64,000 nucleotides of DNA from Escherichia phage VerenaGrendelmeier_Bas101. Positions within the stretch are counted from its first letter, which is position 1. The number at the start of each line of letters is the position of its first letter. Both the position numbers and the translations under genes were made by a program. Below are positions 7,975 to 62,292 of the stretch, in pieces. Location of the stretch: the sequence record PQ850631.1. One strand, written 5' to 3'. The notes under the pieces were generated by a model, which had not been told where the DNA came from, made no database searches, and saw only the letters and a program-made list of their open reading frames with translations.

Positions 7975-9513
7975 GTGATCAGTCAATCTCGTTATATTAA
8001 AATTGTATCAGGGGTCGGAGCAGGCGCGGCTGTTGCAGTTCGCAAACTGTCGCTTCGCATCATGACTTCCAATACAGTCCTGCCGCCGGGCATTGTAGCA
8101 GAATTTTCAACTGCTGATGCCGTTGGATCATATTTCGGTTTTTCTTCCGAAGAATACAAGCGTGCAGCATTGTATTTTGGATTCATCAGCAAGCAAATCA
8201 ACTCGCCTGATTCAATCAGCTTTTCTCGCGTTGTATCCACGGCGATTCCTGCAATGGTTATCGGCGATACTGAGCCTAAAACGCTTGCTACTTTTCAGGC
8301 ATTCACTGGCGCTATCTTAAGCATCACTTATGACGGCACAGACTACCTGACTGACGCCATCAACCTTTCAGCGGCAACAAGCCTTGCCAACGTAGCGGAA
8401 CTTTTGGAAACGGCAATCAACACCAAGTTTGCAGCCGAAGGTGGCACGTCGGTGCCTGCACTTGCTGATGCAGAAGTGTATTGGAATGCCAACACCCAGC
8501 AGTTCACTTTGGAAGCCGCTACGTCGACCGCTGGTGCTGGAAACCTTTCGATTAACGTCACAGGTCAACCGACAGACCCATCTCAGGCGCTTGGTTGGAC
8601 GACTACTGGCACCGTTACGGTTGCTGGCCAGGGTGTAGCAAGTCCGGTAGAAGCCATCGCGGCATCTGTGGAGATTTCCAACAACTTTGGCTCATTCCTT
8701 TTCGCTGGAGCAGACCGAACGCTGGAAGAAATCACAGCCGTTGCAGCTTGGACTCACTCGCAGAACAATATGTACATGTATCTGTTCTCGACTGCATTCG
8801 CCAACATTGGCTCATACTATACCGCACTGAAAGGTTACTCAGGCGTTGGTATGATGATCCGTGCAACCAACCTTGCGAATGATTACATCGACCAGGCACC
8901 TGCTGAAATTCTCGCGGCGACAAACTATAATACTGTAAATGCAACTCAAAACTACATGTACTATCAGTTTGACACGCGAAATGTTACTGTATCGACTGAT
9001 TCACGCGCAGATACTGCTGATCAAAACCGTGCAAACTATATCGGCGCTACTCAGCAAGCTGGTCAAACGCTCGCGTTCTTCCAGCGTGGTGTTCTGATGG
9101 GCGGGTCTACCGCAGCAGTTGACATGAACACTTATGCCAACGAGATGTGGCTTAAATCTGCTATTACTTCTCAGCTGTTCAGCATGTTCTTGAATCTTGG
9201 TCGCGTGCCTGCAAACGAAGAAGGCAAAGCGACTGTCCAAGCCATGATTCAAGTTGCTGTTGACAATGCGAAGGTTAACGGCACCATCTCTGTCGGTAAG
9301 GCGCTGACGGAAATTCAGAAACAGTACATCACGCAAACCTCCGGTGACAACACTGCTTGGCGGCAGGTTGAGACTATCGGTTATTGGTTGACTGTCGATT
9401 TTGACACTGAAACCACTTCCGATAACCGCACCGAATACTATGCAACATACACGCTAATCTACTCTAAAGATGATGCTGTGCGTCGCGTTGAAGGTCGTGA
9501 CGTTCTTATTTAA
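7975..9513 (+). CDS. tail sheath-like protein (DUF3383-like)
   Basis: 512 aa, immediately upstream of tube-like gene; AAGAGGA RBS then GTG. Confidence 0.5.
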   Translation: MISQSRYIKIVSGVGAGAAVAVRKLSLRIMTSNTVLPPGIVAEFSTADAVGSYFGFSSEEYKRAALYFGFISKQINSPDSISFSRVVSTAIPAMVIGDTEPKTLATFQAFTGAILSITYDGTDYLTDAINLSAATSLANVAELLETAINTKFAAEGGTSVPALADAEVYWNANTQQFTLEAATSTAGAGNLSINVTGQPTDPSQALGWTTTGTVTVAGQGVASPVEAIAASVEISNNFGSFLFAGADRTLEEITAVAAWTHSQNNMYMYLFSTAFANIGSYYTALKGYSGVGMMIRATNLANDYIDQAPAEILAATNYNTVNATQNYMYYQFDTRNVTVSTDSRADTADQNRANYIGATQQAGQTLAFFQRGVLMGGSTAAVDMNTYANEMWLKSAITSQLFSMFLNLGRVPANEEGKATVQAMIQVAVDNAKVNGTISVGKALTEIQKQYITQTSGDNTAWRQVETIGYWLTVDFDTETTSDNRTEYYATYTLIYSKDDAVRRVEGRDVLI

Positions 9514-9560
9514 ATAATTGCCGCCGTAACTGGCGGCCATCTCTCTGAGAGGAATCTGTA

Positions 9561-10028
9561 ATGATTAACGTTTCCGGTTTTGGCGCTTCGATTCGTTTGG
9601 TAGCATCAAACACTTTCCCTAATGGTGTGACCCTTTCTGATTTTGCAGATGATGCTGATCCGATTGACGCGCCGGACCTGCAAATCTCTGAGGCTGCAAT
9701 GGGCCTTAACGGTGACTTAGTAGTGTGGAACCGTGCAAACCCGCTTGAAGTAGGTGTGAACATCATCCCTACTTCTGAAAGTGATGTTAACTTGGACGTT
9801 CTTGCAGCTGCAAACCGCGTAGGCAAGCGCAAGAACTCCGCAAAAGACGTGATCACACTTGTGCTGACTTATCCTTCTGGAATGGTTATCACGCTAAACA
9901 AAGGCACCTTGACAACTGGTTCAGTAATTCCTGGCATCCAGTCTCAAGGTCGTGTGAAAACACGTCAATATCGCTTCAAGTTTGAGAACGTAGTCAAAAC
10001 TGGCGTGAGCAACCAAGAGATTTTATAA
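9561..10028 (+). CDS. tail tube-like protein
   Basis: 155 aa directly after sheath-like gene; N-terminus MINVSGFGASIRLVA; paralog of 10979-11476. Confidence 0.5.
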   Translation: MINVSGFGASIRLVASNTFPNGVTLSDFADDADPIDAPDLQISEAAMGLNGDLVVWNRANPLEVGVNIIPTSESDVNLDVLAAANRVGKRKNSAKDVITLVLTYPSGMVITLNKGTLTTGSVIPGIQSQGRVKTRQYRFKFENVVKTGVSNQEIL

Positions 10029-12990: not shown

Positions 12991-15171
12991 GTGTCTGACT
13001 CATTAGAAAAATTTGTGCTTCAATATACGGTGGACTTGAAAGAGTCCATCAATCGTCTTGAGCAATTGCAAGATAAGGTTGATCAGACAAACAAAAAGGC
13101 GAAATCCGCTGGCAAAGATTTCTCTGGAGCATTCAAAGATGTTTTTGGCGAGCTAAAGCCGCTTACTGGTGAGCTAGGGTCAATTGACGGAATACTTGCG
13201 CGGCTGACATATCGTTTTGCCGCGCTCGTTCCTGTTGTCGCAGGATTGGCCGTCGTCGTCAAATCCATCGTTGATGTTCGAAAAGAATACGAAGCGCAAA
13301 GAAAGCTTGGTTTTGAAGCCGGACTCTCTCCAATGGGCGTCGAACAACTACAACGACAGTTGAATGAAAGTTCAGGTGGCATCCTTGGCGCACAGGGGTC
13401 GCGCGATTTAATCAGCAAAGCTTCTAATCTGGCATTCAATGCATACACCAACCCCGATGTGATGAACAAGGACAACTTGTTGTTGAACAAGATGGGGACA
13501 AGTCCTTTCAACAGTAACGGCGGCATCAAAGACACGAATCAGCTGCTTGATGAAATTGGAACAAAGCTGAGAAGTGTGAATGAGCAAACCGCTCGTGCTA
13601 TTGGTGCTCTGGCAGGTTTTACCGCCGATGAAGTCCGCGCCCTTCGCGAGCGCAACCAGTCTGTGAAAGAAAGCACACGCATAAGCGATGAGGAAACGGC
13701 AAAGCTGCAGCGCCAACAAGCTGCTCTTGAGACTATACGAAATAGTATGGGGCAAATTCAAGAAGATTGGCGGCGTATTGAACTGGTTATCGGTGAAAAC
13801 GTTATGCCTGCATTCTCGACGCTTGTCAGCAAGACCGCCGATACAGTCGAAGGATTCCAGATGATGTTCCAAAGAATGTCTGACGGATGGAGCGAATTTG
13901 TCGACAATTTCATCGCTGACTTGAAACACCCGTTTGATAAACAGGCGGCTGTTAACGAGCGTCACGAGCGTGCCGTTGATAGATGGATCACGCAGATGGC
14001 CGAAGGCGATGTGAAACGCCAGAGGAACCAGGAGCAAAACGCTGCTGAACAACGCTCTGCACAGGCTCTTTTTACTCGCGATATCAACCTGTTTTCAAGT
14101 GCCGTTTCAACCTTTGCTGGCGTGATTGATGAGCGTCAAGCTTGGGCGGCATGGGCAGGTGAAATCGGGCGCAGCGCAGGGCAATCCGCGATGCCTGGAA
14201 CACCAGCATTGAATACTGGCGCGACCGTAGGGAATAATCTTGGGTCAGGGAATCCGACAGCATATGACTCAATATATGAGGAAGCTTCAAAACGCTATGG
14301 CATACCTGTAGCGATGATGAAGGCTGTAACTGAAGTCGAATCTGGATTCAATCCAAATGCTGTGAGCGGAGCAGGCGCGACTGGTTTGATGCAAATCATG
14401 CCTTCTAACTTCAAGGGTCTTGGAATAACAGATGGTAATGATCCTCGACAAAACATTATGGGCGGCGCTCAACTTTTGAAAGAGTATCTGAACGCCGCCA
14501 ACGGCGATTGGAATCTTGCGCTGACGATGTATCACGGCGGCTACGACCGAAGCGGCTGGGGCAAGAACACACGCGCGTATCCTGGAAAGGTGATGGCCGC
14601 TCTCGCCCGACAATCCAATGGCGAGTATGCCACGACAGCGCCGCAAGGTGCACCAGTTACTCCAGTACTTAGCGGTAGCGGAGCGGAAGCGCCAAAGGGC
14701 CGTTATGCACCAGTACAAGGTCAATCGCGCCAAACGGTGCAATACAGGCAATTGCAAGAAGCCATTGCAGGATACCTGAACGTACCAGTTGAGCAGTTGA
14801 TGCAGGGACAAGTCAACAAAGGTGATATTGACTTTGCTCAAACTTACCTTAAGCTTGGCACGCAAAGGGATTATATTAAAAACATGCAACTGGCTTCAAC
14901 TCCAGGTGTAAGACCGAACATTCAAGCCGAAGCTATGAAAAACGCTCGTCTTGCTGCATTCCAACTTGAAGCATTCCAGAAATACGGCGGCGACCTTTCC
15001 GCGAATAGTCGACCTGGTGGGCGTGATATTACTATGGGTCAGAAAAACGTTGTCATCAACATCAACGGCGCTCAAGACCCACGCAGCACGGCATTCGAAA
15101 CGAAACGAGTGCTTGAACAAGATGATATCAACGACATAAACAACCTTACTGCTACACCTTTGAAGTGGTGA
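12991..15171 (+). CDS. tape measure protein with C-terminal lytic transglycosylase (SLT) domain
   Basis: 726 aa; coiled-coil N-terminal part, hydrophobic segment, SLT signature EVESGFNPNAVSGAGATGLMQIM...YHGGYD. Confidence 0.7.
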   Translation: MSDSLEKFVLQYTVDLKESINRLEQLQDKVDQTNKKAKSAGKDFSGAFKDVFGELKPLTGELGSIDGILARLTYRFAALVPVVAGLAVVVKSIVDVRKEYEAQRKLGFEAGLSPMGVEQLQRQLNESSGGILGAQGSRDLISKASNLAFNAYTNPDVMNKDNLLLNKMGTSPFNSNGGIKDTNQLLDEIGTKLRSVNEQTARAIGALAGFTADEVRALRERNQSVKESTRISDEETAKLQRQQAALETIRNSMGQIQEDWRRIELVIGENVMPAFSTLVSKTADTVEGFQMMFQRMSDGWSEFVDNFIADLKHPFDKQAAVNERHERAVDRWITQMAEGDVKRQRNQEQNAAEQRSAQALFTRDINLFSSAVSTFAGVIDERQAWAAWAGEIGRSAGQSAMPGTPALNTGATVGNNLGSGNPTAYDSIYEEASKRYGIPVAMMKAVTEVESGFNPNAVSGAGATGLMQIMPSNFKGLGITDGNDPRQNIMGGAQLLKEYLNAANGDWNLALTMYHGGYDRSGWGKNTRAYPGKVMAALARQSNGEYATTAPQGAPVTPVLSGSGAEAPKGRYAPVQGQSRQTVQYRQLQEAIAGYLNVPVEQLMQGQVNKGDIDFAQTYLKLGTQRDYIKNMQLASTPGVRPNIQAEAMKNARLAAFQLEAFQKYGGDLSANSRPGGRDITMGQKNVVININGAQDPRSTAFETKRVLEQDDINDINNLTATPLKW

Positions 15172-18632: not shown

Positions 18633-21371
18633 ATGCAAAAGTTTGACACAAACCTGTTGCAAAACCTTAAGTGGATGCAGAACAATGCACCAAACATTAC
18701 ATCTTTGGTGCAAAAGAAAAGTGACTGGTATGAAAGATACCAAGATCAGTTTTGGACTGACTGGTACAATAACATTTTTAACATTGACACTTGTGATGCA
18801 ATGGGCATTTATATTTGGTGCGACATTCTTTGCATACCAAGAGACTTTGTGGACTTAAGCAATTATGAGCACAACTGGGCGTTTGGACCGACGCGCGACA
18901 ACTTTGAAGGTGCGGACAACATCGGCGGCAACTTCTTTGGTGCTGGCGGGAAGGTTGTAAAGAATATCGAAGAAGCGCGCATACTTCTTAAGCTTCGTTA
19001 TCTGACGCTTACAAGTGATGGCCGCATCGAAAGTATCAACCGCATGCTTAAGTGGATTTTTAACCGTGGAGAGGCTTGGGATTACTCTTCATCACGCTAC
19101 GCATATGTGACCGACAATACTCAAGGTGCGGTGTCTTCATCTGAATCAACAAATGGCTCATTCCTTCTGTACGACTGGCAAGGGTCAACTGAGATTCAGC
19201 ATGATTATAAGCAGATACTTTTAAGCCATGGCAACAACGCCGGGCTGACCATCAGCGGAGTGTCAGGCGCCGTGTCACGGATGGCGCACCCAGATTGGTA
19301 CTCATGGGGGAATGGCTCCGGCACAGGTCTTGTCGGCGGCGACACCAGACAGTATGGCGGCCCTGATTACTATGGACAGTTGTGTGGTGATTACCCAGGC
19401 GAGGCCATAGAGAATTTTGCCAACGCAGTAAGGGTAGTCAAGACTGCTTCAAGCGGTGAGCCTGTGTATTCTTTGGCAAATAATCCAAGCGCCCAATCCA
19501 TTGCGCTTCCTTCGCAGGCTGGCGTTAACGTTTGTTATAGCTTCTACATAAAGGTGCTTTCTGAAAATGTCGCTTCTGTTTCGGTTACAGAGAATAGTGA
19601 TGCATCGAGTAATGGAAAGCTGTTTGACCCCGTCACTGGCCAGTTCAACTTGGACCCGTCATTGAGCTATTTCATCAAAGGCAAATTCGATGGAGTAAGA
19701 AGGGAATCAAACCGTGGTGGCATAAAAGCAATTGGCGGCGATTGGTATCGAATCTGGATTGTAGAGCAGACGGCAACCGCTGCTTCTGGAGTAAGTACCA
19801 GCTTTTCAATAGAGTTGAAGGCGACTGCCGCTGGATCAACTCAAACTCGTGAATTGCCTGAAGGGTCTGATGCTCTTTTGTTTGGATACTCGATTTGCGT
19901 CTGCGACCCTGTTCAGAATCCAAATGGACCTGAGCCTTATTTTTATGGAACGCAAAACCCTCCTTCTGACGGAACAGCAATCCTGTCTGTAACGGCGGGA
20001 ACACTCAATAACATCTCCTGTGCAAACGGACCGCTGACGACAAGAAACGGTGTAGTTGGCGAGTCATTCATGCAACCTGGCTCATCACTTGCATACTCTG
20101 GCTCAATCGGCGGCTACCCGTACCCAGGGAACGCCACGCTGATTGCAGAGACTGATGGAATCAGACGCTCATGGAACGTTAGCAGGCTGGATGGAGTACC
20201 GCCGCCGCCGACCGCCGACTATTACATGGAATACGTCATCGGACCTTATTTCGCCAACAACCTGTCTGACAACTTTAAGACGCTAGTTGGTGACAGGAAT
20301 GAAGGATTCTTGCCAGCAAATGCCGGAATACGCTGGCAGCTTTACCAAGAAGTCGCAGACTTATCTGATATTGATTTGACTGTCAGCGACATAACAGACA
20401 CGCGCGTAGGATTTGAAACGGAAGGTGTTGCGTGGATTAACACTGACGGTATCATCAGAGTTGGCGGCATCAACGAGTGGCCGCTGAACAACTTCAACGG
20501 TGTGATACGCCAGCTTGAATCTTTGAAAGGTGTAAACCAGGTCGTCGACGGCGCGCTTGTCAACGACTATTCAATCTCAAAAGCATCAAGAGATGACTTT
20601 GGTCGTGAAATACCACGCGCGGCAATCACTAACTATTGGCGCTACACACAGCCAAATGACGGTACATCTTTTGGCAATATCATTGAGGATGGCGCAAACA
20701 CTGTCACAGCGATGCCAATCAGCGGTGTGCCCAACCAGTTCCCATCATTCAAGCTTTCCGCTACAATAGGGACTGTGCCAACGTCCGGTTATGCACGCGC
20801 TGTACTTGCTACTAAATACACTGGCACCCTGACTGGCCCTTTGTCATTTATCGCAATAGTCAAAAACAACACGGTTAACGGTCAAAAACTTTTTGTAACT
20901 GTACCGGATGGGATGGGCGGCTATATCCCTAAATTCTACAACATAGGCGCAGGTGATTTGCAACGTATCGAAATTGACCTTGCCGCTGAGATTGTTGAAG
21001 GCGCTACCTGGGATGGATCAACAGGCGGCATCAGCATCGGTTTGATATCAGGGAAAGACTTGCCGACCGAAGTTGGTACTACTCTTGAACTTGATATTTT
21101 AAGCTTGATGCTTGTGTCTGGTAGTACGATGAATGCGCTTGCAATTTCAACAAGCGAAGATTTCGCAAAGAAAACTGCGACTTCTATATACATCAAAAAC
21201 CCAGGATCACTTGCCACTGGAGTTCAATTGATTGCTTCTAATGGTGATGTTGTAGCAACAGTAAACTTTCCGAGAAGTGCTGCTGGTGGTTATGTTTCAA
21301 GCATGAACATAACTGACTTAACTGGTGATTGGGCATCGACCCTTTTATCAAAAATTAAATACATCGTGTAG
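18633..21371 (+). CDS. large baseplate wedge / tail fiber-associated protein
   Basis: 912 aa, GAGGA RBS, position between baseplate J and fiber. Confidence 0.45.
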   Translation: MQKFDTNLLQNLKWMQNNAPNITSLVQKKSDWYERYQDQFWTDWYNNIFNIDTCDAMGIYIWCDILCIPRDFVDLSNYEHNWAFGPTRDNFEGADNIGGNFFGAGGKVVKNIEEARILLKLRYLTLTSDGRIESINRMLKWIFNRGEAWDYSSSRYAYVTDNTQGAVSSSESTNGSFLLYDWQGSTEIQHDYKQILLSHGNNAGLTISGVSGAVSRMAHPDWYSWGNGSGTGLVGGDTRQYGGPDYYGQLCGDYPGEAIENFANAVRVVKTASSGEPVYSLANNPSAQSIALPSQAGVNVCYSFYIKVLSENVASVSVTENSDASSNGKLFDPVTGQFNLDPSLSYFIKGKFDGVRRESNRGGIKAIGGDWYRIWIVEQTATAASGVSTSFSIELKATAAGSTQTRELPEGSDALLFGYSICVCDPVQNPNGPEPYFYGTQNPPSDGTAILSVTAGTLNNISCANGPLTTRNGVVGESFMQPGSSLAYSGSIGGYPYPGNATLIAETDGIRRSWNVSRLDGVPPPPTADYYMEYVIGPYFANNLSDNFKTLVGDRNEGFLPANAGIRWQLYQEVADLSDIDLTVSDITDTRVGFETEGVAWINTDGIIRVGGINEWPLNNFNGVIRQLESLKGVNQVVDGALVNDYSISKASRDDFGREIPRAAITNYWRYTQPNDGTSFGNIIEDGANTVTAMPISGVPNQFPSFKLSATIGTVPTSGYARAVLATKYTGTLTGPLSFIAIVKNNTVNGQKLFVTVPDGMGGYIPKFYNIGAGDLQRIEIDLAAEIVEGATWDGSTGGISIGLISGKDLPTEVGTTLELDILSLMLVSGSTMNALAISTSEDFAKKTATSIYIKNPGSLATGVQLIASNGDVVATVNFPRSAAGGYVSSMNITDLTGDWASTLLSKIKYIV

Positions 21372-21381
21372 AGGAACGGCA

Positions 21382-23169
21382 ATGCCAACACTTATTAACA
21401 GACCTTTCGCGCAAAGCGGTGATGTATCCGTGGTGCCGGATGCAAGTCCAAGCGGTTATGTGAACTTCCAGCGCGGCTACACCCCTGACTATGCACTTGC
21501 GCTGGAAGCCGGAAACGTAGCCGCGAAAGCAGTTGAACGTGAGTCGATGAACTGGTTGCTGAATCTGATCACCGACAACCTTATGTTCATACAGGACCAC
21601 GGCGCTCAACAGTATTTCTCGTCTGACTTGAAGCCAGATGGATACCCGAAAAATGCCATCGTTGTCAGCAACTCTGGCACCCCTTCAGCGCCTGAATGGC
21701 GCATTTTCCAGAGTGTGGTAGACGGCAACACCAGCGCAGTCCCAGCTAACGGCGAAACGGAATCTTGGCAGGAATTGACGCTGCCTAGCGAAGCGAGAAA
21801 ATATATTCCTATGCCTGCTGGCGGCGATGCGCAAAACCCGTATTTTGTTCGCGGACTGATTTCAAACTTTGTGGACTTTGATAATATCACGACTTCCACA
21901 ACTATTGTCATTCAATCTGATGCCGTTGCCGCTCTCTGCTCTAACATCCCGAATGCGGTTGGTGCGACGAAGGTTGCAGGACGTCTCCAGGTTTGCGCTT
22001 GGCAGGTTGATGCGCAGACTTTCGCCCTGCAACAATACACGTCAATGAACGGATATGTTTTCACCCGCTCTTATACGTCTGGTGCTTGGAGTGCTTGGAT
22101 TCAAAATGCAACTGTTCAAGACGTGCAAATCGGCACGCCGAATCTTGCATCAGGTAAAGGCGCACAAGATATAATCCTTACCGTTCCGGCAGGTTATGCA
22201 TGGCCGCCGTCAGCAGGTAGTCGCCTGACAATTGTCAATGATGTAACGACTACCGGACCTGTTACCGTGACCATTGGTGCAAACAAGGTTGCCGTCCTTG
22301 GATTCGACGGCGGCGAGTTGCCAGCAGGGTCCATCGTCGGTCTGCTGCCTTTCACCATTATTTATGACGGAACAGTCTGGCGTCTTCTTCAAGCATTCGG
22401 CGCGGCGCAAATCGGTGTTGATGCTAGTGAGCCGCAACAGTTTGTGACAAAGCGTCAACTCGATGATTTGGCTTCTAAGTTGATCACTATGGGTGATGTA
22501 TTCGAAGTCGGTGAGACTCGATTCTTGACTAATGGCACCAACCCAAACACCAAGCTTGGCGCTTATGGACAGGTGTGGACCAGATTGCCTGATAACATGG
22601 TCATCAGAACATCCGGCACGGCACGAAACGGTCTTGCCACTGGCGGCGCGGACTCCGTCACCCTTACCGCCGCCATGCTTCCTCTGCACAATCACAGCGT
22701 GAACATTACTACGCGACAAAGCGGTCCATGGTCAAATACCACTGGAGATGCGGGCAACCATAACCACACAGGCGATACCAGTCAAAACGGTGCTCACGTG
22801 CACGGAATGGATTCGGCAGGCAACCACCACCATGACAGTAGCTGGGGTGAGGCGAATACGAATGATGCGCGGTATGGCGTGTATGACAATACGCACAACA
22901 ACTTCGGCAGTCGAAAGGGCGGCGACTGGGATAACTACAAATACAACACCTCGACTAACGGCAACCACGTCCACAATATCCAATCTTCTGGGTCACACAC
23001 CCATGGGTTGAATATAAATTACGCTGGCAATCACAGCCATAGCTATACCCTTCCCGCTCACACTCACGATGTGGTCGGTAACACTGGCAACGCAGGGCAG
23101 TCTGTTCCAACGGCTGTCTCAACCCTGCCGCGATATGTCGTCTTGAACGGCTGGTACAGAAGCGCATAA
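21382..23169 (+). CDS. tail fiber protein with C-terminal His-rich HxH repeats
   Basis: GAGGA RBS; C-terminal GNHNHTGDT...AHVHGMD...NHHHD...NHVHNIQ...SHTHGL...NHSHSY...AHTHDV. Confidence 0.65.
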   Translation: MPTLINRPFAQSGDVSVVPDASPSGYVNFQRGYTPDYALALEAGNVAAKAVERESMNWLLNLITDNLMFIQDHGAQQYFSSDLKPDGYPKNAIVVSNSGTPSAPEWRIFQSVVDGNTSAVPANGETESWQELTLPSEARKYIPMPAGGDAQNPYFVRGLISNFVDFDNITTSTTIVIQSDAVAALCSNIPNAVGATKVAGRLQVCAWQVDAQTFALQQYTSMNGYVFTRSYTSGAWSAWIQNATVQDVQIGTPNLASGKGAQDIILTVPAGYAWPPSAGSRLTIVNDVTTTGPVTVTIGANKVAVLGFDGGELPAGSIVGLLPFTIIYDGTVWRLLQAFGAAQIGVDASEPQQFVTKRQLDDLASKLITMGDVFEVGETRFLTNGTNPNTKLGAYGQVWTRLPDNMVIRTSGTARNGLATGGADSVTLTAAMLPLHNHSVNITTRQSGPWSNTTGDAGNHNHTGDTSQNGAHVHGMDSAGNHHHDSSWGEANTNDARYGVYDNTHNNFGSRKGGDWDNYKYNTSTNGNHVHNIQSSGSHTHGLNINYAGNHSHSYTLPAHTHDVVGNTGNAGQSVPTAVSTLPRYVVLNGWYRSA

Positions 23170-23177
23170 GGTGATTT

Positions 23178-23822
23178 ATGATTAATGCAAACGTGATATC
23201 TAAAGGGACCGGATGCAGCATGGATGTCGCAGAGAAATGGGTGGACCCTTTCAAGCAGGCTTGTGAGCACTACGGAATCAAAAGCAAGAACGCCATCGCG
23301 GCGTTGCTTGCAAACGTAGGAGTGGAAACAGGCAGTCTGAAGACATTTGTGGAAAACTTGAATTATTCCGCTCAAGGTCTTGCTAATACATGGCCTAGCC
23401 GTTACAGCGCCAGCGGTCGTTTCGGCGGTGCACCCAACTCCTTGGCATTGTCGATTGCCCGTAAACCAATGGAAATCGCCAATAATACATATGCAAACCG
23501 CATGGGCAACGGTTCGGTAGCATCGGGAGACGGTTGGAAGTACCGTGGCCGTGGTGCCATTCAGCTGACTGGAAAGGATAACTATGCAGATTATTCAAAG
23601 CAATCAGGCTATGACGCATTGAACAATCCTGATATTCTGACTGAACCAAAATACATCGCTGACAGCGCGGCATGGTTCTTTAAGAATAGCGGCTGTATTC
23701 CTCTTGCCGATGCGGGTGCATTTGATTCGACTGTTAAGCGGATTAACGGGGCCGCGCCGAATACGGCTAACCATGGGGATTTGCGACGGAAGCGTTACAA
23801 GGATGCACTAGCAGTTATGTAA
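23178..23822 (+). CDS. endolysin, glycoside hydrolase family 19-like
   Basis: Motif YRGRGAIQLTGKDNYADY and AAWFFKNSG consistent with GH19. Confidence 0.75.
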   Translation: MINANVISKGTGCSMDVAEKWVDPFKQACEHYGIKSKNAIAALLANVGVETGSLKTFVENLNYSAQGLANTWPSRYSASGRFGGAPNSLALSIARKPMEIANNTYANRMGNGSVASGDGWKYRGRGAIQLTGKDNYADYSKQSGYDALNNPDILTEPKYIADSAAWFFKNSGCIPLADAGAFDSTVKRINGAAPNTANHGDLRRKRYKDALAVM

Positions 23823-23823
23823 G

Positions 23824-23854
23824 AAAAAGGCCCATATGGGCCTTTGTTTATTTT
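23824..23854. terminator. bidirectional rho-independent terminator
   Basis: Palindrome GGCCCATATGGGCC flanked by A-tract upstream and T-tract downstream, between convergent genes. Confidence 0.7.
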
Positions 23855-34818: not shown

Positions 34819-35502
34819 TTATTTACCGAATGGAATATCAGTACCAGACATAAAGCGCCATGCGCCCGTAATTAAGATATGGCGAATGAAGTCAGCAATT
34901 ACTTGCGGCTCAGTCTCCAATCCGTTCATCAATGCCTTTTTCTGGTATTCAGCAGCATACTCAGGAGTCCAGCCGCGAGTCGCGCAAACAGCATCTTCAA
35001 TCTGTTTGGACATGCCAGTACCACGTAGCTTGTTAGGACTAATAGAAAATACCGTGATCCCGTATTTAGGCGTAAGCTCGTGAGCCATCTGCTTGCTAAT
35101 CATAAGCGCAGCGGCCTTGGAAGCATTATAACACAAGCTGGACGTCATAGGAATATGCGCAGCGTTGGAAACGATATTGATCACAAAACCTTTGTTGTCG
35201 ATAAGACTTTTCAGCGCGGCTTGAGTCGTGTTGACGAAAGAGAAGGCGTTGGTGTGCATAACGCGATTGAACTCTTCGTAGTTAACATCTTCAAACCAGT
35301 TGTTGGAGTTGACGCCAGCACAGTTGATCAAGCCTTCTACATCATATGGGCTTAAAATTTCTTTCATCTGTTTCGCGTCGCGGACGTCATATCCGTATGC
35401 TGAATCGATTCCAAGCACGTTATGACCGTAAGCGCCAAGGGTGTCAAAAATAGATTTACCAAGACCGGAATTGGAACCTGTTACAACAATTACTTTTTTC
35501 AT
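34819..35502 (-). CDS. short-chain dehydrogenase/reductase (SDR)
   Basis: Cofactor motif VTGSNSGLGKS and catalytic YNASK. Confidence 0.7.
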   Translation of the reverse strand: MKKVIVVTGSNSGLGKSIFDTLGAYGHNVLGIDSAYGYDVRDAKQMKEILSPYDVEGLINCAGVNSNNWFEDVNYEEFNRVMHTNAFSFVNTTQAALKSLIDNKGFVINIVSNAAHIPMTSSLCYNASKAAALMISKQMAHELTPKYGITVFSISPNKLRGTGMSKQIEDAVCATRGWTPEYAAEYQKKALMNGLETEPQVIADFIRHILITGAWRFMSGTDIPFGK

Positions 35503-59958: not shown

Positions 59959-62292
59959 TTATTTCGCTGCTTTTAGCGCGGCTATCTCTGCCTCTAGTGA
60001 CTCGACCTTTTTCATCAACTCCTGTACCACGTGCATCGTATCCAAAAGCATAGGTGTCGTATCAAGTTGTTTTTGTTCAACTTCGACACCTTCACTCGGA
60101 TAGAATTTAATCGTCTTAACATACAAAGGATCAATAATCTCTGCCTGTTGAGCGATAATACCCCTTCTTATCCTTTCCTTTTCATCATTGTTGTATATGA
60201 ACGTTACATACTCCAGCGATGAAAGGTTGCTCCATGCTTTTTCAACCGTTCCTGGTTTTATGTCATGCTTCAAATTCTCATCAGAGATGGCATTCTTCTG
60301 AAGCGTGTAAAAACTATCTGATCCAAGAATTGACACAGAGAAGAATACATCATGAGAGTTTGGCTGGATGTTCATCCTTGTTTGGTATTGCGCGTTATCG
60401 TCACCTACGACAAGCCAAGTCCCCTGAGCAAAACTTCCATTATTATTGTGGATCAAACCGTGATGAAGAGTGGTCGCATAGCCTGTATCTACTTGTTGAC
60501 CGCCGCTAAAAAGGCTGTTGAATGCATAGTTTTGACCTATTGACTGTCTCACCGTTGCATAAGTGCCGATTCTTGTGCCAGTCTCATTCCAAGACATGAG
60601 ACTTCCGTATCTTGCTGCGTATCGGTCGCTACTCAGGGTTCCTGAATCATCAAACGCAAGGTCTTTTGTAACTCCTTTTGTTTTGTTATATACAGATAAA
60701 ATTGCATAATAAAAGCCATCCATGTATGCATCGCACCGAAGCCCAGCATCAGCCTCAACGACGGTTCCGATTTTGTATTGAGCCCTTATCTGACCAGATG
60801 ATGCCTTGACTCCAGAACCTGGGCGAACGGAGTCAGCATTGATGACCTGCCATTGCGTATCCGCGGCAACGAATCCACCCGATGCACGAATCACCCAAAC
60901 TCCGACGAAGTTGCGCGGAACAATTTCCGCTGCTGAACGACCATAAACAGGACTGCAGCGAGAAGCGTCAAAGTTTGTTTGTATGAATCTTGACCCAGAG
61001 CCTGCTGCCGCAGGAGAGTCACCCGAAGTTATTGACTGAAAAGCACCATTAGTTGCCACCTGGCTTGGTGCAGAAGCCAGCGTCACCATTGTGTGCGGCG
61101 CTGAGTAAATTATATTTGGAGCGCCTGATTCAGACACAACCCCGTTGGATGATGAATTCCCACCGTCACCCCTGCCAAATAAGGCCTGTATGGAACCAGT
61201 TTGAACACCGTTCCTGTCAGGCACTCGAAACGTCGTCGTTCCGTTGCCCAGAGAATATTTGCCGCGTTTTGCTGGGTCTGCTAACCAATCTGCATCAGCA
61301 ATAGGTGAAAGCATTTGCGCATACGCCCAAAGCTCAGGCCAATCAGCACGATTGAGTAGTTGACCGTCAGCGACGACTTCATAAGGTTGAATATAAGCGC
61401 GGCTGTCGCGTAAGTGGAAGTCGCCGACGCCATAGTTCATCACGCCGTTCATACTTGGGCCAACGGTGCCTGTGTTCACCAAGTTCTCAACCCAACGCTT
61501 CGTAGTAGCATCATAGTCGTTAACTGGGTCGCCAGCGAGCGGCGTTGATCCTTGAGGGCGTATGTTCAACCAAGCCTGAGCATTATCTGCAGAGCCTGTG
61601 CCGCCCATGGAAGTTGGCACGATGTCTTGATCAGCGACTGCGCCAAATCCAAAGGCCGACTTCACACCATCAATAGTTGTCTGGCCTGTGCCGCCGTTAG
61701 CTACTGGGATTACGGTTGACTCGGAATAAATCATGACCCAAGAAGACCATGATTGAGTTTCCATGGTGAATCTTCTTTGATATGTATTGTTGGAATCGAA
61801 TGTCGTATATCGTTGAATGCAACTTTCTGATATAACGCCTGTCTGCAATACTTCTAATACTCCTGCTTGCTGCGCAGGGTAATTCAAAGCTGAAGATGCA
61901 CCACCGTTTGAATTTTGGAAGTACTGCCCAAACCAAGTCCCTGTAAGCGCATTAAGATTCATGCCGGATGGAACAATCCCAAAGTTTCGGACAGTGCCCG
62001 TCAAAGTCGCGGCAGTAGTTCGAATGGAAAGCATATCGCCCGCCGCCCATGCACGAGCTGCAGTACCTTCCTGCGCACGCTGCACGGTTAGAACGTTTCC
62101 AACAACGGCTGTTACTGTGACGATTTCGAACTGGAGGCCTGTTGCAGCGTCGACGATTGTCGCCACTACACGCTCGTTTGCGCCCAAGGTCGGAAAGCCC
62201 GACCCTGAGCGGATTGTGATTGTGGTGCCTGAAGTCGTCGTTGGCTGAGCGAGCGCGACCTCAAAGTTGTTTTTGAATATTAGCCTTGGCAT
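59959..62292 (-). CDS. tail fiber / tailspike protein with C-terminal intramolecular chaperone (peptidase S74-like) domain
   Basis: 777 aa; C-terminal SDENLKHDIKP...LEYVTFIYNND...RRGIIAQQAEIIDPLYV and terminal coiled coil. Confidence 0.65.
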   Translation of the reverse strand: MPRLIFKNNFEVALAQPTTTSGTTITIRSGSGFPTLGANERVVATIVDAATGLQFEIVTVTAVVGNVLTVQRAQEGTAARAWAAGDMLSIRTTAATLTGTVRNFGIVPSGMNLNALTGTWFGQYFQNSNGGASSALNYPAQQAGVLEVLQTGVISESCIQRYTTFDSNNTYQRRFTMETQSWSSWVMIYSESTVIPVANGGTGQTTIDGVKSAFGFGAVADQDIVPTSMGGTGSADNAQAWLNIRPQGSTPLAGDPVNDYDATTKRWVENLVNTGTVGPSMNGVMNYGVGDFHLRDSRAYIQPYEVVADGQLLNRADWPELWAYAQMLSPIADADWLADPAKRGKYSLGNGTTTFRVPDRNGVQTGSIQALFGRGDGGNSSSNGVVSESGAPNIIYSAPHTMVTLASAPSQVATNGAFQSITSGDSPAAAGSGSRFIQTNFDASRCSPVYGRSAAEIVPRNFVGVWVIRASGGFVAADTQWQVINADSVRPGSGVKASSGQIRAQYKIGTVVEADAGLRCDAYMDGFYYAILSVYNKTKGVTKDLAFDDSGTLSSDRYAARYGSLMSWNETGTRIGTYATVRQSIGQNYAFNSLFSGGQQVDTGYATTLHHGLIHNNNGSFAQGTWLVVGDDNAQYQTRMNIQPNSHDVFFSVSILGSDSFYTLQKNAISDENLKHDIKPGTVEKAWSNLSSLEYVTFIYNNDEKERIRRGIIAQQAEIIDPLYVKTIKFYPSEGVEVEQKQLDTTPMLLDTMHVVQELMKKVESLEAEIAALKAAK

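What the first reader, a model, noticed from the sequence alone, without database searches (positions are those of the whole stretch)
21382..23169. Tail fiber with a dense C-terminal array of His-x-His motifs
The last ~120 residues contain at least seven HxH-type motifs (NHNH, HVH, HHH, HVH, HTH, HSH, HTH) embedded in Gly/Asn-rich sequence, the pattern of metal-coordinating fiber tips in T4-type long and short fibers. This gene is the likely receptor-binding determinant of the structural operon.
Basis: partly seen in the sequence, partly recalled or inferred. Interest (0 to 1): 0.4.

Follow-up and report, generated by a model that had tools for sequence, protein, structure and literature searches.

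The report
Conserved phage tail fibre, histidine-stapled tip
This gene encodes the conserved tail fibre of a Wifcevirus-type E. coli phage, whose tip is a T4 gp37-like needle with eight His-x-His motifs that most likely hold metal ions. The same feature has already been published for a 95%-identical orthologue, so the finding is real but ordinary.

Summary

The window is a Wifcevirus, a roughly 68-kb E. coli myovirus. The N-terminal 370 residues are homologous to the baseplate-docking part of the Pseudomonas phage Pa193 fibre gp47. The C-terminal 225 residues are homologous to the T4 gp37 receptor-binding tip (profile E = 2.5e-19). The arrangement is collar, four HxH going up, a 44-residue head, four HxH coming down. 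The head carries the motif that surrounds the zinc site of T4 gp12.

All 16 motif histidines are invariant in 20 orthologues.

This fibre is 94.6-100% identical across phages isolated on different hosts. A second fibre at 59959-62292 (-) is 55-97% identical and mosaic, and it is the likelier host-range determinant.

Humolli et al. 2025 (PLoS Biol) already described this fibre's gp37-like tip and conserved HxH motifs. The small additions here are the gp12-type head and the concentration of the little variation in the head, as two alleles that cut across backbone clades.

Metal binding and trimer geometry were not tested.

The parts
21382..23169 (+). Tail fibre gene (595 aa plus stop): the conserved Wifcevirus fibre with the gp37-like tip
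   Evidence: ORF and translation. PHROG tail-protein families phrog_5717 (E = 1.6e-173) and phrog_4900. 86-98% nt identity to 28 Wifcevirus records.
21382..21771 (+). aa 1-130: N-terminal baseplate-docking domain ('bead I'), boundary approximate. Includes Leu39 and Leu41, which align with Pa193 gp47 Ile41 and Leu43.
   Evidence: Residues 2-373 align to Pa193 gp47 residues 4-369 (PDB 9b45) at E = 2.7e-32. The docking loop is described in PMC11456595. Only 2 of 130 columns vary in 20 orthologues.
21772..22491 (+). aa 131-370: shaft, equivalent to beads II and III of Pa193 gp47 (boundary approximate)
   Evidence: Same alignment to 9b45. Matches phrog_4900 over residues 2-376. 22 of 240 columns vary.
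22492..22686 (+). aa 371-435: collar domain, first part (gp10/gp11/gp12/gp37-type)
22687..22833 (+). aa 436-484: ascending needle arm with four HxH motifs (436, 460, 472, 482)
   Evidence: Motif positions. Aligned to the ascending HxH motifs of T4 gp37. The histidines are invariant in 20 orthologues.
22834..22965 (+). aa 485-528: distal head, the presumed receptor-contact surface. Contains SSWGE...GGDWDN, the gp12-type motif.
   Evidence: The head profile A3 matches T4 gp12 residues 445-484 at E = 2.9e-4. It is the most variable segment: 16 of 44 columns vary against 45 of 551 elsewhere, Fisher p = 1e-6.
22966..23067 (+). aa 529-562: descending needle arm with four HxH motifs (529, 539, 551, 560)
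23068..23166 (+). aa 563-595: return to the collar (C-terminal ...LPRYVVLNGWYRSA)
   Evidence: The family consensus ends PPY..W.RTA. This aligns to the C-terminus of gp10. AF2 pLDDT blocks here range from 68 to 92.
18633..21371 (+). Upstream partner: baseplate wedge-2 (triplex) protein, 912 aa. It carries the fibre-attachment loop (Trp82, Phe84, Phe91, Phe101).
   Evidence: Pfam DUF2612. The N-terminal 185 aa match Pa193 gp46 (9b45_v) at about E = 1e-41. The four hydrophobic loop residues described in PMC11456595 are conserved.
59959..62292 (-). Second, variable fibre of the phage (777 aa, C-terminal intramolecular chaperone). Not part of this gene, but it is the likelier host-range determinant.
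   Evidence: phrog_6921 and Pfam Peptidase_S74. 55-97% aa identity within the genus and mosaic with T5-like phages. Described as the T-shaped dual-RBD fibre in PMC11990801.
23826..23845 (+). Terminator-like hairpin that closes the structural/lysis transcription unit after the endolysin gene (23178-23822)
   Evidence: No promoter-like or terminator-like site separates the wedge-2, fibre and endolysin genes, and the intergenic gaps are 10 and 8 nt.

Best explanation
The gene encodes the conserved, baseplate-attached tail fibre of a Wifcevirus myovirus.

**Shown by homology**
- The first ~370 residues are the docking domain and shaft of a Pbunavirus-type fibre. They plug into the attachment loop of the wedge-2 protein encoded immediately upstream.
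- The last ~225 residues are a T4 gp37-type tip: a collar, a needle and a small distal head.
- The chain runs up the needle with four HxH motifs, forms the head, and runs back down with four more HxH motifs to the collar.

**Inferred from the T4 gp37 and gp12 structures**
- The protein is a homotrimer.
- At each of the eight levels, the HxH of the three chains gives six histidines that bind one metal ion octahedrally (Fe2+ in gp37, Zn2+ in gp12).
- The ions act as internal staples that make a thin, rigid needle.

**Inferred from conservation**
- The head, which carries a gp12-type motif, contacts a conserved cell-surface structure. The LPS core or another invariant outer-membrane component is most likely.
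- This contact would follow binding of the O-antigen by the variable T-shaped fibre.
- The fibre would then serve the irreversible-binding or triggering step, not host-range choice.
For: - **Identity of the phage and gene:** 86-98% nt identity to 28 Wifcevirus genomes, with the same synteny of wedge-2, fibre and endolysin.
- **N-terminal homology:** residues 2-373 match Pa193 gp47 (9b45) at E = 2.7e-32.
- **Docking interface:** the upstream protein matches Pa193 gp46 at about E = 1e-41. The interface residues described in PMC11456595 are conserved on both partners.
- **Tip homology:** a family profile matches 2XGF (T4 gp37 tip) at E = 2.5e-19, gp10 C-terminal domain at 6.7e-9, the cyanophage A-1(L) fibre at 1.6e-9 and the SU10 short fibre at 4.6e-7.
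- **Layout:** 4 + 4 HxH motifs flank a 44-residue insert, against 3 + 4 in gp37.
- **Head motif:** it matches gp12 residues 445-484 at E = 2.9e-4.
- **Conservation:** all 16 motif histidines are invariant in 20 orthologues, and GxHxH is the family consensus. dN/dS is 0.02-0.07.
- **Variation:** it is concentrated in the head, Fisher p = 1e-6.
- **Second fibre:** it is variable and mosaic.
- **Published support:** an AlphaFold 3 trimer of the orthologue shows a gp37-like tip with HxH motifs, ipTM 0.64 (PMC11990801). The same tip type is seen in Bas63 (PMC12609058) and SU10 (PMC9509320).
Against: - Metal identity and occupancy are unknown.
- No receptor is known for this fibre. Published data show only that Wifcevirus isolates need O16 O-antigen, without assigning it to either fibre.
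- Head variation means the fibre is not strictly invariant, so some role in specificity is not excluded.
- The gp12 head match covers only 40 residues. The sequences for that profile were picked using a pattern that included the DWDN motif, which makes the test partly circular.
- Pfam gives no hit for the protein at E <= 0.1.
Confidence: 0.72

Rival explanations
1. One reading: this fibre is the phage's primary receptor-binding and host-range determinant.
For: - It is the only fibre gene in the structural operon.
- Its tip is homologous to the T4 gp37 tip, which is the T4 host-range determinant.
- The only variable segment is the distal head, and its alleles are exchanged between backbone clades.
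- More distant relatives (51-57% identity) carry different head types on the same scaffold.
Against: - The protein is 94.6-100% identical in phages isolated on O157:H7, K-12(O16), Shigella and ESBL E. coli.
- Both head alleles occur in phages of K-12(O16) (Bas98 and Bas100 against Bas99) and in phages of O157:H7 (FEC19 and Ro157lw against ECML-117), so the allele does not track the host.
- The other fibre is far more variable and mosaic.
- The published analysis assigns variable-receptor recognition to the other fibre.
Confidence: 0.15
2. A purely structural or mechanical fibre. It binds no receptor. It braces or positions the baseplate or the other fibre and transmits the trigger signal, and the HxH needle is only a rigid strut.
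For: - Very strong purifying selection, with dN/dS of 0.02-0.07.
- Humolli et al. suggest 'a more mechanical role'.
- The SU10 short fibres with this tip type rearrange to build a nozzle.
Against: - In every studied case the homologous tip is described as a receptor-binding domain: shown for T4 gp37, inferred for the Bas63 long and short fibres and for the SU10 short fibre.
- Variation is focused on the exposed head, Fisher p = 1e-6. That is unexpected for a strut with no ligand.
Confidence: 0.1
3. The histidine array is mainly a metal-carrying or metal-scavenging device. The fibre would mimic an iron source to reach a siderophore or metal-uptake receptor. It is not an internal structural staple.
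For: - HxH-rich fibres are discussed as iron-binding in marine phage work, for example PMC11705849 (title and abstract only).
- The array is dense, at eight motifs.
- Weak chance-level similarity of the head profile to ZinT (E = 0.16-0.5).
Against: - Homology to gp37 places the histidines inside the trimer core, not on the surface.
- The spacing and the GxHxH context match the buried sites of gp37.
- The ZinT matches are not significant.
Confidence: 0.03

Closest known systems
Conserved 'second' tail fibre of Wifcevirus phages (called Gp32 of ManiWeber/Bas99 in Humolli et al. 2025, PLoS Biol, PMC11990801; GenBank Bas99_0031, Bas100_0031)
   Same: It is an orthologue. Identity is 94.6-100% aa across 20 genomes, with the same position between the wedge-2 and endolysin genes. 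The paper already reports the gp37-like elongated tip, the conserved HxH motifs and conservation across the genus.
   Different: Nothing essential. The paper's gene numbers do not match the GenBank locus tags, so the identification rests on the description. Added here: the count of eight invariant HxH motifs, the gp12-type head motif, and the head-focused variation with two alleles shuffled between clades.
T4 gp37 long-tail-fibre receptor-binding tip (PDB 2XGF)
   Same: The collar, needle and head order is the same, with the chain doubling back. GxHxH repeats lie on both arms. Profile homology is E = 2.5e-19. [quoted passage not shown]
   Different: - There are eight HxH motifs (4 + 4) instead of seven (3 + 4).
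- The head sequence resembles gp12, not gp37.
- The tip sits on a 595-aa single-protein fibre docked directly on a simple Pbunavirus-type baseplate, not on a four-protein long fibre.
- No gp38-type assembly gene lies next to it; the downstream gene is the endolysin.
- It is conserved, not hypervariable.
T4 gp12 short-tail-fibre receptor-binding domain (PDB 1OCY, 1H6W)
   Same: HxH followed by G[WF]GE ... G..DWDN aligns with gp12 residues 445-484, beginning at its HKH. That this HKH is the zinc-binding site is from my own knowledge of the gp12 structure. The likely role is also similar: a conserved fibre that binds a conserved envelope component after a more variable fibre has bound.
   Different: Only about 40 residues match. 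gp12 has a single metal site and a larger knitted head. The whole-domain profile does not reach gp12.
Pbunavirus tail fibre (Pa193 gp47, PDB 9b45; E217 homologue)
   Same: The N-terminal ~370 residues are homologous (E = 2.7e-32). The docking residues are conserved, and so is the neighbouring wedge-2 protein with its attachment loop.
   Different: Pa193 gp47 is 962 aa and about 500 Å long, with an unrelated distal part. Here the distal part is replaced by the gp37-type tip. Pbunaviruses are not described as having a second fibre.
Felixounavirus long and short tail fibres (Bas63 gp26/gp27, Felix O1 fibre) and Kuravirus SU10 short tail fibre gp16 (PDB 7z47)
   Same: They have the same tip type, with six to seven HxH motifs in Bas63 and two pairs in SU10. 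Felixounaviruses are the most numerous phage relatives of the C-terminal domain by tblastn (25-33% identity).
   Different: Their N-terminal anchors and shafts differ, as do the number of HxH motifs and the head sequences.

Membership tests
T4 gp37-type receptor-binding tip (collar, needle and head) | Sequence homology to the gp37 tip across the collar and both needle arms | tested here: met
   The profile of 58 family members matches 2XGF at E = 2.5e-19, profile positions 51-256 against chain residues 28-228.
T4 gp37-type receptor-binding tip (collar, needle and head) | Repeated HxH motifs on an ascending and a descending segment that flank a head insert | tested here: met
   Motifs at 436, 460, 472, 482 | 529, 539, 551, 560 here, against 883, 915, 929 | 966, 980, 989, 998 in gp37. 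The histidines are invariant in 20 orthologues.
T4 gp37-type receptor-binding tip (collar, needle and head) | Collar domain of the gp10/gp11/gp12 fold, formed by both ends of the segment | tested here: inconclusive
T4 gp37-type receptor-binding tip (collar, needle and head) | Homotrimer with a six-stranded interdigitated needle and HxH side chains on the three-fold axis | not testable with these tools
The published AlphaFold 3 trimer of the orthologue has ipTM 0.64.
T4 gp37-type receptor-binding tip (collar, needle and head) | Bound metal ions (Fe2+ in gp37), one per HxH level | not testable with these tools
   This needs ICP-MS, anomalous scattering or a structure.
T4 gp12 short-tail-fibre receptor-binding domain | Metal-site motif HxH..G[FW]GE...G..DWDN (gp12 residues 445-484) | tested here: met
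   The head profile A3 matches 1OCY, 1PDI and 5IV5 gp12 at E = 2.9e-4 to 1.3e-3, starting exactly at the HKH. The single-sequence hit is E = 0.9. Caveat: the profile members were selected with a DWDN-containing pattern.
T4 gp12 short-tail-fibre receptor-binding domain | Homology over the whole gp12 head and collar | tested here: not met
   The whole-domain profile A1 does not retrieve gp12 at E <= 10. Only 40 residues align.
Pbunavirus-type baseplate-docked fibre (Pa193 gp47) | Homologous N-terminal docking domain and beads, with conserved hydrophobic docking residues | tested here: met
   E = 2.7e-32 over residues 2-373. Leu39 and Leu41 align with Ile41 and Leu43 of gp47.
Pbunavirus-type baseplate-docked fibre (Pa193 gp47) | Adjacent wedge-2 (triplex) protein with the fibre-attachment loop | tested here: met
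   The upstream 912-aa protein matches gp46 at about E = 1e-41. Trp82, Phe84, Phe91 and Phe101 align with Trp84, Phe86, Phe93 and Phe112.
Pbunavirus-type baseplate-docked fibre (Pa193 gp47) | Homologous distal (receptor-binding) part | tested here: not met
   There is no significant alignment beyond residue ~373.
Host-range-determining receptor-binding protein | Receptor-binding region varies between relatives with different hosts | tested here: not met
   Identity is 94.6-100% across phages of different hosts, and head alleles do not track the host. The other fibre varies from 55 to 97%.

The most novel reading that the evidence does not exclude
The conserved fibre is the functional equivalent of T4's short tail fibre on a minimal Pbunavirus-type baseplate. 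It would bind a near-invariant envelope component irreversibly and trigger contraction. The two head alleles (GGDWDN and [ST]DYDN types) recombine freely between backbone clades, and on this reading they mark a so far unrecognised two-state polymorphism in that secondary receptor. The fibre would then also show that the gp12 head and the gp37 needle are interchangeable modules of one lineage.
Probability: 0.3. Interest if true: 0.35.

Novelty: already known. Interest (0 to 1): 0.15.

Why it matters
It matters little beyond annotation. The gene should be labelled as the conserved Wifcevirus tail fibre with a gp37-like, HxH metal-stapled tip, and not as the host-range determinant. Anyone engineering the host range of these unusually fast-replicating phages should target the fibre at 59959-62292 first. 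The head-restricted variation and its recombination between clades give a defined, testable handle (44 residues, two alleles) on what this conserved fibre binds, which is still unknown for the genus.

Tried and rejected
- **Pfam scan of the protein:** no family at E <= 0.1. PHROGs gave the first functional assignment.
- **Word-indexed homologue search with the C-terminal 256 aa:** it returned only 16 distant proteins and missed the orthologues. The full-length search returned 4. The exhaustive representative search was needed to see the family, with 403 proteins at E <= 1e-3.
- **AlphaFold2 monomer of aa 340-595:** mean pLDDT was 67.8. The collar was confident, but the needle and head were mostly below 50, so the model says nothing about HxH geometry.
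- **Positive selection on the head:** not supported. dS is saturated between head alleles and dN/dS is at most 0.13 where it can be computed. Allele exchange therefore fits better than diversifying point mutation.
- **Antisense ORFs inside the gene (169, 101 and 99 aa):** no PHROG hits. I treat them as chance ORFs.
- **Internal promoter or terminator between wedge-2, fibre and endolysin:** none convincing. Promoter-like sites are near the shuffle expectation.
- **Metal-scavenging reading:** the ZinT similarities were not significant.
Full report
**1. The observation**

The ORF list shows a 614-aa GTG-initiated frame at 21325-23169. The biological start is the ATG at 21382.
- It lies 10 nt after the stop of the upstream gene (21371).
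- A GAGGA sequence lies 6 nt upstream.
- All 20 orthologues examined begin MPTLINRPFAQS.

The product is 595 aa. HxH motifs start at residues 436, 460, 472, 482 (HHH), 529, 539, 551 and 560. Eighteen of the 19 histidines are in the last 165 residues, which are rich in N, G, H, S and T.

Shuffling that already His-rich tail gives 1.84 HxH on average, and 3 of 100,000 shuffles reach eight. Shuffling the whole protein never does.

**2. Where the window comes from**

The gene is 86-98% identical at the nucleotide level to 28 phage records, all of them Wifcevirus. These are E. coli and Shigella myoviruses of 66-72 kb. The best match is TH32 at 97.6%, and Bas100 is 96.0%.

The annotated Bas100 record shows the same order of genes: sheath, tube and others, a tape-measure-like lytic tail protein, hub, spike, the Baseplate_J wedge, a 912-aa 'hypothetical protein', this 'tail protein', and the endolysin. 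A convergent replication module follows.

In the window, the gaps on either side of the fibre gene are 10 nt and 8 nt. No convincing promoter or terminator lies between the genes. A terminator-like hairpin sits right after the endolysin, at 23826-23845. Antisense ORFs inside the gene have no family matches.

**3. The N-terminal two thirds**

Residues 2-373 align to residues 4-369 of 'gp47 tail fiber' in PDB 9b45 at E = 2.7e-32. Entry 9b45 is the baseplate of Pseudomonas phage Pa193, a Pbunavirus.

The Pa193 paper describes residues 1-340 as three beads (PMC11456595). The loops at residues 38-52 (Ile41, Leu43) dock on the attachment loop of the wedge-2 (triplex) protein gp46, at residues 80-113 (Trp84, Phe86, Phe93, Phe112).

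Both sides of that interface are conserved here.
- The window fibre has Leu39 and Leu41 at the aligned positions.
- The upstream 912-aa protein matches gp46 at about E = 1e-41 over its first 185 residues.
- It keeps Trp82, Phe84, Phe91 and Phe101 at the aligned positions.

So this fibre docks on the baseplate in the Pbunavirus way. This step rests on homology with conserved interface residues. The docking domain is almost invariant in the genus, with 2 variable columns in 130.

**4. The C-terminal third**

Pfam finds nothing in the protein. PHROGs assigns the C-terminus to 'tail collar' and 'tail fiber' families.

An exhaustive HMMER search with residues 340-595 finds 403 cluster representatives at E <= 1e-3. 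In the 166 sequences retrieved, HxH counts range from 0 to 14, and most carry 3 to 14.

The alignment of 58 members gives this consensus: a collar segment (YPVG..NPN..F.G.TW ... TGG.DSVTLT...LP.H.H), a series of G.H.H repeats, a variable insert, more G.H.H repeats, and a C-terminal PPY.....W.RTA.

A profile of this alignment was searched against all PDB sequences.

| PDB entry | Protein | E-value |
|---|---|---|
| 2XGF | T4 gp37 receptor-binding tip | 2.5e-19 |
| 8kec | cyanophage A-1(L) fibre | 1.6e-9 |
| 2fkk | T4 gp10 C-terminal domain | 6.7e-9 |
| 7z47 | SU10 short tail fibre | 4.6e-7 |
| 9nxk | Pa223 fibre | 1e-3 |

The 2XGF match covers the collar and both needle arms.

T4 gp37 itself carries seven tip HxH motifs at 883, 915, 929 | 966, 980, 989, 998. 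That is three before and four after its head. The window protein has four before and four after a 44-residue insert.

The Bas63 paper summarises the gp37 architecture (PMC12609058). [quoted passage not shown] By homology, this protein should hold up to eight ions per trimer. This step is inferred and was not tested.

**5. The head**

The single-sequence PDB search gave a marginal hit of residues 480-530 to T4 gp12 (E = 0.9). Thirteen family members share the same head type, HxH..G[WF]GE....G.YD....G...D[WY]DN....TST.G.HxH.

Their profile matches gp12 residues 445-484 in three gp12 entries at E = 2.9e-4 to 1.3e-3. The match begins exactly at the HKH of gp12. That this HKH is the zinc-binding site is from my own knowledge of the gp12 structure. 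The tip is therefore a gp37-type needle capped by a gp12-type head motif.

Two caveats apply.
- Only 40 residues match.
- The sequences were picked with a pattern that contained DWDN, so the test is partly circular.

More distant full-length relatives (32-57% identity) carry at least two other head types on the same scaffold. This suggests the head is an exchangeable module.

**6. Structure prediction**

Only monomer prediction was available. The model of residues 340-595 has a mean pLDDT of 67.8. The collar is confident, but the needle and head are mostly below 50, as expected for an interdigitated trimer modelled as one chain.

The published AlphaFold 3 trimer of the orthologue has ipTM 0.64. 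[quoted passage not shown]

**7. Is it the receptor-binding determinant?**

Across 20 Wifcevirus orthologues, pairwise identity is 94.6-100% and dN/dS is 0.02-0.07. The host phages were isolated on O157:H7, K-12 with restored O16, Shigella flexneri and ESBL E. coli.

The phage has a second fibre at 59959-62292 (-).
- It is 777 aa, with a Peptidase_S74 intramolecular chaperone.
- It is only 55-97% identical within the genus, and large parts are shared with T5-like phages.
- TH32 is the closest phage for the HxH fibre, with 99.6% aa identity in the C-terminal 256 aa. It matches this second fibre at only 71% identity over 71% of its length.

This agrees with Humolli et al. They call the second fibre T-shaped, with a gp12-like RBD1 and a T5-like RBD2. 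They link it to O-antigen recognition and suggest 'a more mechanical role' for the conserved fibre.

It is most likely wrong about host-range determination.

**8. What is new here, modestly**

The little variation the fibre has is not spread evenly.

| Region (aa) | Variable columns |
|---|---|
| Docking domain, 1-130 | 2 of 130 |
| Shaft, 131-370 | 22 of 240 |
| Collar, first part, 371-435 | 4 of 65 |
| Ascending needle arm, 436-484 | 9 of 49 |
| Head, 485-528 | 16 of 44 |
| Descending needle arm, 529-562 | 5 of 34 |
| C-terminal return to collar, 563-595 | 3 of 33 |

The head against the rest gives Fisher p = 1e-6.

Two main head alleles exist: ...NTNDARYGVYDNTHNNFGSRKGGDWDN... and ...YADQARYGVYDGT.NN[IL]GS[RA][KR]-[TS]DYDN....
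- Both occur in both backbone clades defined by the first 1110 nt.
- Synonymous divergence between the alleles is saturated. That points to exchange of a tip cassette, not to point-mutation arms-race evolution.
- Both alleles occur in phages of K-12(O16) and of O157:H7, so they do not map onto host serotype.

This fits a head that touches something at the cell surface. It does not fit a head that decides the O-serotype host range.

**9. Mechanism proposed**

*Shown by homology*
- A fibre docked on the wedge-2 loop.
- A gp37-type collar, needle and head tip with eight invariant HxH levels.

*Inferred*
- The protein is a homotrimer.
- One octahedral metal ion sits at each level and staples the needle.
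- The head is the ligand-binding end.

*Inferred more weakly*
- The ligand is a conserved envelope component such as the LPS core.
- It is bound after the T-shaped fibre has engaged the O-antigen.
- This supplies the irreversible-binding or triggering step, as gp12 does in T4.

Rivals are a primary host-range determinant, a purely mechanical strut and a metal-delivery device. They are weighed in the rival section. None is excluded by experiment.

**10. Verdict**

The feature is real, well conserved and correctly recognised as a T4-type HxH fibre tip. It is an orthologue of a fibre for which exactly this feature has been published. The same tip type is also documented in Felixounavirus (Bas63), Kuravirus (SU10) and other phages. 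Novelty is therefore 'already known' and interest is low.

Noticed in passing
window 18633-21371 (+): The wedge-2 (triplex) baseplate protein is 912 aa. Its Pbunavirus homologues are 500-504 aa (Pa193 gp46, E217 gp45), and only the first ~185 residues align. The remaining ~725 residues match only an unknown-function PHROG (phrog_4797) and could be an extra exposed domain at the baseplate periphery.
   Followed up: partly
window 59959-62292 (-): The variable T-shaped fibre of this phage is 96.5-96.6% identical to those of Bas98 and Bas100, which depend on O16 O-antigen, so the window phage probably targets the same glycan. TH32, the closest genome by the HxH fibre, has a quite different version (71% identity over 71% of the length). 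This shows fibre mosaicism within the genus.
   Followed up: partly
L004 and L010 (ManiWeber/Bas99, PQ850618.1): The gene numbers in Humolli et al. (Gp32 for the conserved fibre, Gp114 for the T-shaped fibre) do not match the GenBank locus tags. The conserved fibre is Bas99_0031, Bas99_0032 is the endolysin, and the T-shaped fibre is Bas99_0109. The match to the paper therefore rests on its description, not on the numbers.
   Followed up: yes
P0017, P0018, P0019, P0020, P0027, P0028, P0168 (full-length relatives at 32-57% identity): The same N-terminal scaffold carries needles of different length (8 to 12 HxH) and at least three unrelated head sequences. Whole HxH repeats are inserted or deleted between relatives.
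   Followed up: partly
window 23826-23845 (+): A GC-rich hairpin followed by a T-run lies right after the endolysin stop. It sits at the point where the rightward structural/lysis unit meets leftward genes, so it may act as a bidirectional terminator.
   Followed up: no
window 12991-15171 (+): A 726-aa 'lytic tail protein' carries an SLT transglycosylase domain (aa 430-529) inside what looks like the tape-measure position.
   Followed up: no
window 34819-35502 (-): By synteny with the Bas100 annotation, this 227-aa ORF corresponds to a FabG-like 3-oxoacyl-ACP reductase, an auxiliary metabolic gene that is unusual in a virulent coliphage. It was not verified here.
   Followed up: no
L002 (Pantoea phage PA1, Kylevirus, PP537389.1) 9001-9789: A ~69-kb Pantoea phage of another genus encodes a C-terminal tip 35% identical to this one. 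That is the closest phage relative outside Wifcevirus, ahead of the Felixounavirus fibres. The record is unannotated.
   Followed up: no
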